A stretch of DNA of 12,986 bases. Origin: Octopus sinensis (taxonomy: Eukaryota). The position numbers and the translations under genes were made by a program. Under the pieces are notes generated by a model. The model saw only the letters and a list, made by a program, of their open reading frames with translations, ran no database searches and had not been told where the DNA came from. Shown here piece by piece: positions 2,081-12,986 of the stretch. The stretch lies in NCBI RefSeq assembly GCF_006345805.1, contig NW_021826426.1, forward strand, positions 1-12,986. Reading direction: 5' to 3'. Numbering within the stretch: position 1 is the first letter of the stretch; every line of letters starts with the position of its first letter.

Positions 2081-2727
2081 AGTTGCCATGCAAACTCGCC
2101 AGCACTTTTAACATAGGTGTGCATATTTTGAAAGATCAATCATAAATATCAGGCAGTGACAACGGAAAGGTCTGCTTCAAGGCAGACAGCAAAACACTGA
2201 CATTTAAAAGGGACAGACGAACTTGCGAGCTGAATAGAAATAAAAAAAATATTGGAAACCAAAGTTTGAAGGGATAGAATCTGAGGATAGTAGAGTCACC
2301 ATGGCTGACATTTCTTAACGACGGACAGCAACATAGTGGCAGTTTAACGGCTGGCATAAAATTTTTAGCTTGATGTAAAAGAAAATTCCTAAACACCAAG
2401 TTTTGAAGTGATTCTTTCTCACGACAGTAGACTCACCATGGCAAGCATTCAAAACTTCTTCATCATGGACGGCAACACATTGAAGATTTAAAGGCTGGCG
2501 CAAATTTTTTAGCTTGATGTAACAGAGAATTCCTAAATACCTGCTCCTGTAAATCTTAATCCCCTTCCAGCCCATTTAGCCCCTTTTTCACATTTTGGTT
2601 AATATAGCCCGATTTCATTCGGGTCTACTCGGGCCACATTTTATAAGATGAGGTCACGCCTTTCATTTGAGGAAAAAATAGTTACCATGCAAACTCGCCA
2701 GCACTTTAACATAGGTGTGCATATTTT
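2081..2727. repeat. ~49-bp dispersed direct repeat pair (2081-2129 and 2680-2727)
   Basis: AGTT(G/A)CCATGCAAACTCGCCAGCACTTT(T)AACATAGGTGTGCATATTTT occurs twice, with one substitution and one indel. Confidence 0.9.
2150..2541. repeat. Three diverged ~140-bp tandem units inside the Helitron
   Basis: 2286-2397 vs 2423-2541 share AGTAGA(G/C)TCACCATGGC...GGAC(A/G)GCAACA...TTTAA(C/A)GGCTGGC...TTTTTAGCTTGATGTAA...AATTCCTAAA(C/T)ACC; 2150-2285 is a more decayed unit (GACAGCAAAACACTGACATTTAAA, AAGTTTGAAG). Confidence 0.8.
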
Positions 2728-2784
2728 CAGCTCAACCGACCACATATGCGCACATTGATAATATATATTATATATATATATAGA

Positions 2785-2797
2785 TATATATATATAT

Positions 2798-2836
<39 letters not shown>

Positions 2837-2963
2837 ATATTTACATATATACGCATTATATATACAAATGGTATACAAATTATATATATATATGCATTAA
2901 ATATATATGTACATATATACGCATTATATATACAAATGTATACAAATTATATATATATATATA
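2785..2963. repeat. (TA)n-rich microsatellite with a 68-bp-period duplication
   Basis: TACATATATACGCATTATATATACAAATG(G)TATACAAATTATATATATA at ~2842 and ~2910. Confidence 0.9.
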
Positions 2964-2968
2964 ATATA

Positions 2969-3521
2969 ATTCATAAATGAGGCAAGGAAAAAAATTCTAA
3001 TGCCAAATAATGCCGAAAAATTGGACATATTGTCCATTAACCATATAATTTTTTCACAATACGCACGCTACCTCGAAAAAGGCTGACAGAAATTTCTAAA
3101 AAATTCCATTATTACCATATCGGACCGATTTCAGAGTTAGCTACTAAGAGCTCTCTCTTCGTCAGTGATACATGTGGTAAAAGAAATAAATGAGATACTT
3201 ACATCATACCCATGGAAGAAGCAAACACTAAGTCACGGGCACGACTAAGTACCCCCCAAATACATCCAAATAGAAATACTCCAGCCCATCCGAGGCACAC
3301 GTGCGATTGAACTGAGGCTCTCACGAGTGGAGTTAGTTAGTTCGGAAGTGAACGCTTAAATTTATATCAAATGTGAGGATAAAATTCTTTTCGAAAAAAA
3401 TTTTATCAATGGCCAGCATATTAAAAAAATACCTTTAACGGTTAAATTTATAAACATTCATAAATGAGGGCAAAGGAAAAAAATTCTAATGCCAAAAATG
3501 CCGAAAAATTGGACATATTGT
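2969..3521 (-). mobile_element. Hammerhead-containing repeat, 487-bp unit plus ~65-bp terminal redundancy (PLE pseudo-LTR or retrozyme-like)
   Basis: ATTCATAAATGAGG...GGAAAAAAATTCTAATGCCAAA.AATGCCGAAAAATTGGACATATTGT at 2969-3033 and 3456-3521; a hammerhead lies between; no ORF. Confidence 0.65.
3112..3180 (-). ncRNA. Minimal type-I hammerhead ribozyme, intact catalytic core
   Basis: Minus strand: UUACCA-CAU-GUAUCA [CUGACGA] AGAG-AG-AGCU-CUUAGU-AGCU-AA-CUCU [GAAA] UCG [GUC] CGAUAU-GGUAA. Core at 3165-3159 and 3132-3129; predicted cut between 3123 and 3122; stem I has one A-C mismatch next to the cut. Confidence 0.8.

Positions 3522-4310: not shown

Positions 4311-4369
<59 letters not shown>
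4086..4369. repeat. Compound (TG)n/(TA)n/(CA)n microsatellite
   Basis: Directly visible. Confidence 0.95.
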
Positions 4370-4370
<1 letters not shown>

Positions 4371-4680
4371 GAGGCGCAATGGCCCAGTGGTTAGGGCAGC
4401 GGACTCGCGGTCGTAGGATTGCAGTTTCGATTCCCAGACCGGACGTTGTGAGTGTTTATTGAGCGAAAACACCTAAAGCTCCACGATGCTCGGGCAGGGG
4501 GTGGTGGCGATCCCTGCTGTACTCTTTCGCCACAACTTTCTTTCACTCTTTCTTCTGTTGGTCTGCTCGCTTAGCCAGCGGGGTGGCGTCATTTGAAGGC
4601 TAAAACAATGCGATCGCATTGTGACCAGCGATGTGTAGCAACATCTGATAGCCTGGTCGGTCACGGTGATCACCGTGATA
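4370..4680 (+). mobile_element. tRNA-derived SINE family B (tRNA-Arg-like head; resembles octopus OR-type SINEs)
   Basis: A-box TGGCCCAGTGG 4380-4390, B-box GTTTCGATTCC 4424-4434; second copy at 12763+; structured 3' end with hairpin and 18-bp palindrome. Confidence 0.88.
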
Positions 4681-6426: not shown

Positions 6427-6571
6427 AAGCTGGCGAGCTGGCAGAAATGCTTAGCGGTATTTCGTCTGTCTTTACGTTCTGAGTTCAAATTCCGCCGAGG
6501 TCAACATTGCCTTTCATCCTTTCGGGGTAGATCTAATCGACTAACCCCACCACCCAAAATTCTGAGCCTTG
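6427..6571 (+). mobile_element. Internally deleted SINE family C copy
   Basis: GGCGAGCTGGCAGAAATGCTTAGCGGTATTTCGTCTG..TTACGTTCTGAGTTCAAATTCCGCCGAGGTC..TTGCCTTTCATCCTTTCGGGGT matches 11488-11608; CCCAAAATTCT matches ~11850. Confidence 0.85.
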
Positions 6572-6675
6572 CCGAATAGCTAAGTTACAGGGACGTAAAT
6601 ACATCAGCATTGGTTGTCAAGCGATGTTGGACACACACACACTCACACGCACGCACGCACGCACGCACACACACA

Positions 6676-9676: not shown

Positions 9677-11410
9677 CTATGTTTGACTTTTGCTTTATAT
9701 TTGTACAAGTTGGCTCCAAGTCTCACCCAGAGACCTCAAGAGACAACAGGGTTGGAAGTTCATGTTGTTGTTATGCCTAGTGTGCCATATATTTGGGGGG
9801 TGGGGATGTTGTACTAATGAATGTCTAAAAAAAAGGTTTTTTTTTTTTTTTTTTTTAACCGAAAATTATGTTTGTTTAAACCTTGAGATTACATAGAGAG
9901 TATTTTGCGAAGGATATGAGCAGTTCCCATGAGCACTTTCTTTTTAACTTCTGCCATTTTTGGGTTTCCTGGTATCTGAGTTAGGTAGCTATCAGCCCCT
10001 TTTGCTATCATTCCCAGGGCACCTATGACAACAGGTATTGTTTTAGTCTTCAGCTTCCACATTTTGCTGATTTCTATTTCAAGATCTTTATATTTGCTCA
10101 GTTTTTTGGTAGGTCTTGACAGATACGTTATATCGATTGGGACAGTCATATCAATGAGGAGGCATGTTCTTTGTTTGAAGTCTTTCAATATGATGTCTGG
10201 CCTATTTGCATCTATCTTCCTGTCAGTTTGAATGGTGAAGTTCCAGAGGAGTGAGATGTGGTCATTTTCAAGCACTGGGGTGGTTTGTGTTCCCACCAGT
10301 TTTTTTCATGGGGCAAATCCAGGTTTTTACAGATTACCCAGTGAATATATTGTGCAGCTCTATCGTGCCTGTTTGAGATACTCTGTAGGCGCTAGAAAAC
10401 TGCACTTGGAGACCACATGGTCAATGGTTTCATTTTGTGCTTGCATACACGACACGTTGGACTGCTTCTGATCTTTAATATGTTGGGCCTGGTAGTTTCT
10501 TGTTGTAGGCATTGATCTTGAGCTGCTATGATAAACCCTCTGTTTCAGATTTTAAGCCAGAGGCCATTAGCCATTGATGGTCAGGGCTTTGTCAATATCT
10601 GCATTATTCGCTCTCTTCGGGTATTTGCCATAGAGAGTTTTTTCTTGCCATTTATTATTCAGAATATCTAAGGCCGCAGTTTTGGCACGGGTTTCATGCG
10701 CCTAGCTTTTTCTGTGCTTGTTTTCTTGTATATCTATCTCTATTCCGAAATTGGTTGTATTCGGAATTCACTTAGATATTCCTTTGCCTGTTTTGTGACT
10801 GAGTATGATTGCTTTCTTGTTTTCATGTTTTGAGACAAGTTTTAGCATCCAGTCCTCAGAGTTTTTCAGGTAGGTGTCTAGGTCAATTGTAGCAATCTTC
10901 ATTGTTATTGCCAGTTGCAAAAGACCACGGCCTCCCTCTTTTCTTGGCAGATAGAGTCGTTCTGTATCTGCCTTAGGGGGTGGCATTCTATGCATTGTCA
11001 CAGTTTCCTTATTTTCTGTCGAGCTGACATATTTCAGTAATTGACCAGTTAACAATATTGAAACTGTAAGTCACGACTGGTATAGCTAATGCATTGATTG
11101 CTTCGATCCTGTTTTCTTGCATTCAGCTCTGTCTTGAGTATTGCTCTCACTCTTCGATAGCATTCTCTCCTGATCCTTTCCTTCATCTCTGAATGCCTTA
11201 TTCCTTCCGTTCCCTTCAATTACCCCTAGGTACTTGTAGCTCTCCGCTGGGTCTAGTTCTTTTATGACATTCTGTTGGTCAAGGTTAACGTTGAGGTTTC
11301 TGTCATTTTCCTTTGATAAGGTAGCCTTTGCACATTTATCGAGGCCGAATTGCATTCTGATGTCGTCACTGAATTGTTTGACTATCGCTAGTAAGCCCTT
11401 GAGTTGTTGT
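9677..11410 (-). mobile_element. 5'-truncated R4/Dong-clade non-LTR retrotransposon with restriction-like endonuclease
   Basis: Domain order RT C-half, CCHC, RLE, ~210-bp 3' UTR (9888-9677); (TAA)n at both junctions. Confidence 0.9.
9889..11410 (-). pseudogene. Frameshifted RT-RLE polyprotein C-terminal half
   Basis: QQLKGLLAIVKQFSDDIRMQFGLDKCAK (just after the missing YxDD), YKYLGV, RLYLPRKEGGRGL, CRVC...ETIDHVVSKC (CCHC, ~10455-10402), LWNFTIQTDRKIDANRPDIILKD...LLIDMTVP...KLSKYKDL...IPVVIGALG...GTAHILRKILSM*; split over several frames. Confidence 0.92.
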
Positions 11411-11485: not shown

Positions 11486-11891
11486 AAGGCGGCGATCAAG
11501 CAGAATCTTTAAGACACTGGGCGAAATGCGTAGCCGTATTTCGTCTGCCGTTACGTTCTGAGTTCAAATTCCGCCGAGGTCGACTTTGCCTTTCATTCTT
11601 TCGGGGTCGATAAATTAAGTACCAGTGACGCACTTGGGTCGATATAATCGACTTAATCCGTTTGTCTGTCCTTGTTTGTCCCTTCTGTATGTAGCCCCTC
11701 GTGGGTAGTAAAGAAATAGGTATTTCGTCTGCCGTTACGTTCTGAGTTCAAATGCCACCGGGACCGACTTTGCTTTTCATCTCTTCGCGGTCGATAAATA
11801 AAGTACCAGTTACGCACTGGTGTCGATGTAATCGACTGGTCCCCTCCCCCAAAATTCTAGACCTTGTACCTATAGTGGAAAGGATTATTAT
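11486..11891 (+). mobile_element. Full-length dimeric tRNA-derived SINE family C with (ATT)n tail
   Basis: B-box-like GAGTTCAAATTCC; internal duplication 11536-11653 / 11720-11837; central GACTTTGCCTTTCATTCTTTCGGGGTCGATAAATTAAGTACCAG resembles, from memory, the MetaSINE/Sauria-type conserved domain; ends AAAGGATTATTAT. Confidence 0.88.
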
Positions 11892-12680: not shown

Positions 12681-12762
12681 TATATATATATATATTATAT
12701 ATATGTACACATACACACACATATGTATATATACATACATATATATTTACATATATACATAT

Positions 12763-12986
12763 GTAGGAGCAATGGCCCGGTGGTTAGGGGAGCGGACTCG
12801 CGGTCGTAGGATCGCAGTTTCGATTCCCAAGCCCGGCGTTGTGAGTGTTTATTGAGCGAAAACAATTAAAAGCTCCACGGCGCTCCGGCAGTGGGTAGTG
12901 GCGAACCCTGCTGTATTTTTTTCACCACAACATTCACTCTTTCTTCCTGTTTCTCTTGTACCTGTATTTCAAAGGGGCCAGCCTAG
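12763..12986 (+). mobile_element. SINE family B copy with alternative 3' region (runs off window)
   Basis: Co-linear with 4370-4554 (GCAATGGCCC.GTGGTTAGGG.AGCGGACTCGCGGTCGTAGGAT...CACTCTTTCTTC), then diverges. Confidence 0.88.

What the first reader, a model, noticed from the sequence alone, without database searches (positions are those of the whole stretch)
2969..3521. Intact hammerhead inside a terminally redundant 487-bp non-coding unit: candidate retrozyme/circRNA-forming element
Seen: a complete CUGACGA/GAAA/GUC hammerhead on the minus strand, within a unit whose first ~65 bp recur 487 bp later; no ORF. Known: minimal type-I hammerheads occur in Penelope pseudo-LTRs and in metazoan non-LTR retrozymes, where tandem copies self-cleave to monomers that can circularise. 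Inference: a ~1.13-unit insertion is what reverse transcription past the start of a circular or tandem RNA would leave, so this may be a non-autonomous ribozyme-processed retroelement family.
Basis: partly seen in the sequence, partly recalled or inferred. Interest (0 to 1): 0.75.

Follow-up and report, generated by a model that had tools for sequence, protein, structure and literature searches.

The report
Hammerhead mini-element with Penelope-style insertions
This is one copy of a repeated, protein-free ~500-base jumping element that carries a hammerhead-ribozyme fold and lands in TA repeats, mostly as two back-to-back arms that pair a long end with a short end, so it is likely pasted in by Penelope-type retrotransposon enzymes; self-cutting and RNA circles are untested.

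Summary
A minimal type I hammerhead lies on the minus strand (3112-3180) and a ~65-bp repeat recurs 487 bp later. The ribozyme has an A·C mismatch at the base of stem I and a dimer-type stem III. The 65 bp is not a terminal repeat. The family unit is ~500 bp, with at least 621 hammerhead-bearing matches in the genome. Copies have two fixed 3' ends 105 nt apart that run into (TA)n (212 of 222 arms) and variable 5' ends. Of 86 head-to-head junctions, 72 pair long with short, 2 long-long and 0 short-short; 12 have an unclassed end. Two protein-coding Penelope-like (PLE) families in this genome show the same two-end pattern. No copy examined is joined to an ORF, and no partner PLE was identified. 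Best reading: a non-autonomous PLE-mobilised retrozyme-type element. A circular template is possible but unproven: insertions read through the cleavage site without scars, but the longest arrays look mostly like DNA duplications. The scan has reported this pattern before in other families and genomes. New member of a known kind.

The parts
2968..3521 (-). Whole insertion: one arm of 1.13 units, 5'-truncated at 3521 and ending at the family's short 3' end
   Evidence: no inverted partner arm found in the window
2761..2967 (.). (TA)n-rich target microsatellite directly beyond the short 3' end
   Evidence: 212 of 222 family 3' ends have (TA)4+ within 60 nt, against 234 of 1963 flank windows
2968..3033 (-). 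Terminal partial unit, stopping at the fixed short end
3112..3180 (-). Minimal type I hammerhead fold; predicted cut 3123/3122; A·C mismatch at 2.1/1.1; palindromic stem III
3361..3375 (-). Internal (read-through) copy of the fixed long 3' end, junction near 3366/3365
3378..3407 (-). Hairpin in the tail between the short and long ends; this copy lacks a 17-bp duplicated piece found in the young subfamily
3455..3521 (-). First occurrence of the 65-bp overlap, ending at the internal copy of the short end; 5' truncation at 3521 beside a repeated 7-mer in the flank

Best explanation
This is a 5'-truncated copy of a non-coding ~500-bp hammerhead-bearing repeat with two fixed 3' ends in (TA)n, likely copied into the genome in trans by the reverse transcriptase and GIY-YIG nuclease of a Penelope-like (probably Neptune-type) retrotransposon. 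Shown: the dispersed family, the fixed ends, TA targets, variable 5' ends, head-to-head arms, the long-plus-short pairing, shared variants between arms, and no joined ORF in the loci examined. Inferred: the nuclease cuts both strands of (TA)n. One DNA end primes reverse transcription at the short site and the other at the long site of the same or a sister RNA. The two cDNAs stop at random and join by microhomology. The template is continuous across the ribozyme site: either a ligated circle (about 40%) or an uncleaved tandem transcript (about 60%). The ribozyme is predicted to need a dimer or protein help.
For: Ends and pairing: in 139 deduplicated loci, 86 head-to-head junctions gave 72 long+short, 2 long+long, 0 short+short and 12 with one unclassed end; 72 of 74 classed pairs, binomial p 3e-19. 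Single-arm loci are balanced: 27 short, 25 long, 2 other of 54. Target: (TA)n at 212 of 222 ends. Junction overlap of 1-24 nt at 49 of 86 junctions (BLAST edges). Arms of one insertion share non-consensus bases at 1.5% of sites against 0.25% between insertions (154 non-independent pairs, 63 loci). Two ORF-bearing PLE families here also have two fixed ends about 40 nt apart in (TA)n: 2 of 2 clean head-to-head pairs were long+short in the 781-aa family, and 4 of 6 in the second. The 781-aa frame has RVT_1 and GIY-YIG matches and a CxxxxCxxC linker. Hammerhead stems: 97% of cells paired and 3 pairs with two-sided change in 20 hand-picked copies, 0 of 500 shuffles as high for paired cells. Literature: one-sided tail, inverted 5'-truncated copy and (TA)n bias in PLEs (PMC8557442, PMC3846280); two internal RT start sites and cutting of both strands in vitro (PMC11167929).
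Against: No autonomous partner sharing this unit was found: 0 of 30 GIY-YIG loci matched the unit, and the 1 match among 20 extended PLE loci was a neighbour carried in a duplication. The tail is ~105 nt, longer than the 30-40 nt described for PLEs. Cleavage is untested; 8 of 9 Xenopus retrozyme dimers did not cleave (bioRxiv 10.64898/2026.07.22.740005), and the PAc hammerhead needed protein and was dispensable for insertion in vitro (PMC11167929). One of the three covarying pairs was built into my search patterns. The long class was a wide window (unit positions 125-195). Two-arm priming is inferred from genomic products only.
Confidence: 0.82

Rival explanations
1. A true retrozyme with a circular intermediate: tandem transcripts self-cleave at 3123/3122, monomers are ligated, and the PLE enzyme copies round the circle. 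This is a special case of the best reading.
For: No run-off at the cut site (1 of 222 arm 5' ends in that 12-nt bin) and no recurrent scar there. Stop rate is roughly constant, 0.54-0.70 per 100 nt from 200 to 800 nt. Cross-pass copies in one insertion are as alike as same-pass copies (3.4-3.9% against 3.2%, p 0.23). The circular unit folds better than shuffles (z -4.9, -3.7, -2.1; 14 shuffles each). Circles are proven for coral, mussel and axolotl retrozymes (PMC7229834).
Against: Three of the four longest arms have near-identical extra units (1/366, 3/423, 1/390 differences), which points to later DNA duplication. The fourth (L011) alternates long and short units. Rare variants are shared slightly more by same-pass arms (48 of 9323 sites) than cross-pass (27 of 8537; p 0.018), which favours a linear multi-unit template. 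The ribozyme is of the weak minimal type. No circle data were available.
Confidence: 0.4
2. The copies are truncated pseudo-LTR stubs of an ordinary ORF-bearing PLE, present but unsampled or now lost.
For: Every insertion hallmark is that of PLEs. ORF-bearing PLEs also leave many short stubs. Only 151 loci of more than 600 were read.
Against: Read-through of the long end goes back into the unit in 93 of the first 100 of 252 matches; the other 7 lead into mutually unrelated sequence (counted by eye). No shared foreign sequence lies upstream in the first 100 of 272 matches (by eye). The 9 of 151 loci with PLE protein hits nearby were separate insertions in the 7 that I extended.
Confidence: 0.12
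3. A dispersed satellite spread by DNA-level recombination, with a chance or dead hammerhead.
For: Some local DNA duplications exist (L002, L009, L128, L164).
Against: Fixed 3' ends, TA targeting, 5' truncation and inverted arms are not satellite behaviour. The core is kept across subfamilies with compensatory stem changes.
Confidence: 0.03

Closest known systems
Metazoan non-LTR retrozymes (PMC7229834; bioRxiv 10.64898/2026.07.22.740005)
   Same: ORF-less unit of a few hundred bases, GC under 45% (36%), one type I hammerhead per unit, coexists with PLEs.
   Different: Mostly under two units per arm, not long tandem arrays; minimal rather than canonical ribozyme; fixed PLE-type ends and head-to-head arms; circles and cleavage not shown.
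EN+ Penelope-like elements, Neptune type, and PAc/Poseidon (PMC8557442, PMC11167929, PMC3846280, PMC4209133)
   Same: Partial tandems, 5' truncation, inverted adjacent copy, optional tail at one end, (TA)n targets, minimal hammerhead with palindromic helix III.
   Different: No RT or GIY-YIG ORF; tail ~105 nt instead of 30-40; the unit closes on itself instead of continuing into an ORF.
Non-autonomous Chlamys elements such as MRC1 (PMC8557442, passage)
   Same: Non-coding PLE passengers that form pLTR-like and head-to-tail insertions.
   Different: Those generally resemble an autonomous family at the 3' end and mostly lack canonical hammerheads; here no partner with extended similarity was found.

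Membership tests
Type I (minimal) hammerhead ribozyme | Core CUGANGA, GAAA, UH with stems I and II | tested here: met
   one mismatch at 2.1/1.1
Type I (minimal) hammerhead ribozyme | Short palindromic helix III allowing a dimer fold | tested here: met
   AUCGGU is self-complementary with two G-U pairs and invariant in 20 of 20 aligned copies (partly fixed by the search patterns). The cofold did not give this dimer as the lowest-energy form.
Type I (minimal) hammerhead ribozyme | Match to an Rfam hammerhead model | tested here: not met
   no hammerhead hit at E up to 1 and 10
Type I (minimal) hammerhead ribozyme | Self-cleavage at the predicted site | not testable with these tools
   only assembled contigs were available
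Non-LTR retrozyme | Non-coding repeat unit with one type I hammerhead | tested here: met
Non-LTR retrozyme | Tandem copies with two or more hammerheads in line | tested here: inconclusive
   14 of 222 arms hold 2 or more hammerhead sites; the window copy holds one; no long arrays seen
Non-LTR retrozyme | Expressed as monomeric circular RNA | not testable with these tools
   contigs of guessed-RNA runs cover the unit but cannot show ends or circles
EN+ PLE (autonomous) | ORF with RT and GIY-YIG between pLTRs | tested here: not met
PLE-type insertion | Fixed 3' end with optional tail, 5' truncation, inverted adjacent copy | tested here: met
PLE-type insertion | Microsatellite (TA)n target bias, as in Neptune and Naiad | tested here: met
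   212 of 222 against 234 of 1963
Non-autonomous PLE derivative | Shared terminal sequence with an identified autonomous partner | tested here: inconclusive
   no extended similarity; only a short shared motif at the long end with the 781-aa family, seen by eye

The most novel reading that the evidence does not exclude
A dimeric Penelope-type enzyme primes both cut DNA strands at two set points on one small ribozyme-made RNA circle and copies round it. This would be a genomic record that retrozyme circles are PLE substrates, and it would explain both the PLE tail and the head-to-head inversions.
Probability: 0.3. Interest if true: 0.72.

Novelty: new member of a known kind. Interest (0 to 1): 0.45.

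Why it matters
That PLEs move animal retrozymes is proposed in print from co-occurrence and pLTR similarity (PMC7229834; the 2026 preprint), but the papers I read do not show it from insertion anatomy. This family shows PLE-type ends on an ORF-less ribozyme unit. It also puts a number on the 'tail at one end only' remark: 72 of 74 classed pairs are long plus short. That gives a direct in vitro test of two-site priming with a 500-nt RNA. The element class is known, and this scan has already seen the same rule in other families, so the gain is confirmation and a clean test substrate.

Tried and rejected
1) L091 looked like the autonomous partner, with two unit copies around two ORFs. Rejected: sister PLE copies end before the unit, and both unit copies lie in a 1653-bp, 99.3% duplication that includes flank and a SINE-like repeat. 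2) Searches for an ORF-joined form found none: GIY-YIG loci, divergent hammerhead pattern (16 matches, 13 family variants by eye, flanks not read), read-through patterns, 9-kb extensions of 7 of 9 loci with nearby PLE hits. 3) Rfam gave no hammerhead. 4) Expression: no RNA holder on record was listed. Contigs of 7 guessed-RNA runs cover the unit; in the 3 laid on L187 a unique flank had no cover but neighbouring repeats had as much or more. This is no evidence on level, ends or circles, and no clear splice joint was seen. 5) A length wall that would separate circle from linear template was not found; too few long arms (the 'all arms' hazard line there is faulty and was not used). 6) 5'-end peaks near unit positions 325 and 466 coincide with short palindromes and with ascertainment, so I do not call them transcription starts. 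7) One search used a mis-registered structure and was redone. 8) One search gave no useful names. 9) Rows dropped: 12 of 151 loci as repeat fetches, 13, and a further 10 compound or duplicated loci plus non-contiguous ones.

Full report
OBSERVATION. On the minus strand the window reads stem I, CUGACGA (3165-3159), stem II, GAAA (3132-3129), UCGGUC (3128-3123) and the second strand of stem I. Folding recovers stems I and II. The base of stem I is an A·C mismatch. Stem III is two pairs around a 2-nt loop, the palindromic form that PMC4209133 (parts 1-2 of 4 read) describes for PLE hammerheads, which cleave weakly and as dimers. Rfam has no hit. The repeat 2968-3033 / 3455-3521 is real (94%). No ORF lies in the unit.

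FAMILY. The window lies in a 2.7-Gb eukaryotic genome; earlier scan notes call it an octopus, which I did not test. A DNA search gave 2830 candidates, 40 scored, best sisters at 87-93% over the full length. Two non-overlapping hammerhead patterns gave 194 and 427 matches, reversed controls 0. Subfamilies share the whole unit. In 20 hand-picked copies 97.2% of stem cells pair and three pairs change on both sides. One of the three was fixed by my patterns, and relatedness inflates such counts.

ANATOMY. I read 151 loci and kept 139 after dropping repeat fetches. Arms end at unit position ~69 (short) or ~174 (long), 159 and 264 nt past the predicted cut, and run into (TA)n in 212 of 222 cases against 234 of 1963 flank windows. 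5' ends are spread over the unit. Eighty-five loci hold 86 head-to-head junctions: 72 long+short, 2 long+long, 0 short+short, 12 with one unclassed end, several of them deletions next to an end. The 54 single-arm loci are 27 short, 25 long and 2 other. The window copy is a single short-ended arm truncated 65 nt upstream of the previous short site, so its 'terminal redundancy' is one value of a variable overlap.

NO ORF LINK FOUND. None of 30 GIY-YIG loci matched the unit. The one apparent partner, L091, proved to be a neighbour in a duplication. PLE protein hits occur near 9 of 151 loci; in the 7 extended to 9 kb they are separate insertions. Read-through of the long end returns to the unit in 93 of the first 100 of 252 matches, and no shared foreign sequence precedes it in the first 100 of 272; both were counted by eye. 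This is a sample, not a census.

PLE COMPARISON. This genome has young ORF-bearing PLEs. In 30 loci each of two such families (524 and 544 pattern matches) the 3' ends also fall at two sites about 40 nt apart in (TA)n. Clean head-to-head pairs were long+short in 2 of 2 and 4 of 6; one further pair read on into the ORF and one was unclear. In print: partial tandems, an inverted 5'-truncated copy, a 30-40-bp tail often at one end only, and (TA)n bias (PMC8557442, passages; PMC3846280, passages). PMC11167929 (parts 1-2 of 4) shows two internal RT start sites matching the tail, cutting and extension of both strands, a predicted dimer, and a hammerhead that needs protein and is dispensable for insertion in vitro.

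MECHANISM. Most likely a PLE enzyme binds this RNA in trans, cuts both strands of (TA)n, primes at the short site from one end and at the long site from the other, and the two cDNAs join at short homologies (overlap at 49 of 86 junctions). The two arms come from one source lineage (shared variants 1.5% against 0.25%); this does not prove one molecule. The enzyme, the priming and the joining are inferred. PMC3846280 offers self-priming on an antisense template as another route to head-to-head products; it does not predict the long+short rule.

CIRCLE OR NOT. For a circle: no run-off or recurrent scar at the cut site, a constant stop rate, equal divergence of cross-pass and same-pass copies, and strong folding. 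Against: three of the four longest arms look like later DNA duplications, and rare variants are shared a little more by same-pass arms (p 0.018). DNA duplication could also restore multi-unit sources without a circle. Sequencing data were contigs only and decide nothing. I put the circle at about 40%.

KNOWN AND NEW. It works like a PLE passenger and fits the non-LTR retrozyme description in part (PMC7229834, passages and Discussion). The preprint 10.64898/2026.07.22.740005 (parts 1-3 of 5) already argues that animal retrozymes derive from PLE pLTRs. It is not an autonomous PLE. Seven library searches showed no paper on this family or a counted long+short rule. Subscription journals, Repbase, Dfam and all supplements were not seen, so the family may be named there. 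One note (e1-9815200) reports that ORF-bearing PLEs show the same two-end pattern in another genome; I saw it before running the check. Those notes are not independent support.

VERDICT. A real feature and a new member of a known kind. Interest 0.45.

Noticed in passing
window 2083-2128 and 2684-2728: A ~45-bp direct repeat brackets about 560 bp that itself holds an 86-bp repeat at 144-bp spacing (2312-2397 and 2456-2541, 79%); possibly another insertion with a long duplication.
   Followed up: no
window 9889-11409, minus strand: Broken reading frames that look like the end of a non-LTR retrotransposon RT with a restriction-like nuclease (recalled motif resemblance); no Pfam hit at E 0.1 in 3 frames.
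   Followed up: partly
L091 6350-6390; L100, L203, L204, L206 3' UTRs: Several PLE families here seem to carry a hammerhead with U3-A8 in place of C3-G8, a variant named in PMC4209133; seen by eye only.
   Followed up: no
L091 1-1653 and 5934-7591: A two-ORF PLE (479-aa and 781-aa frames) sits between two 99.3% identical 1653-bp stretches that include its own 3' end plus neighbouring repeats; a 3' flank transduction or a local duplication.
   Followed up: partly
window 3190-3365, minus strand: The unit has promoter-like and splice-donor-like motifs upstream of the ribozyme (TATA-like, ETS-like, initiator-like, GTAAGT; motifs recalled, not tested). D. virilis Penelope has an intron ending at its hammerhead (PMC4209133).
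   Followed up: partly
L011 119-2007: An arm of about 3.8 units in which two units share a 28-bp deletion that the unit between them lacks.
   Followed up: partly
L112, L124, L147, L175, L181: Arms scored as single have a tiny inverted stub of the opposite end type beside them, in line with the long+short rule (by eye).
   Followed up: partly
window 4318-4477 and 12711-12870; 6457-6574, 11536-11653, 11720-11837: Dispersed SINE-like repeats; label recalled, not tested.
   Followed up: no
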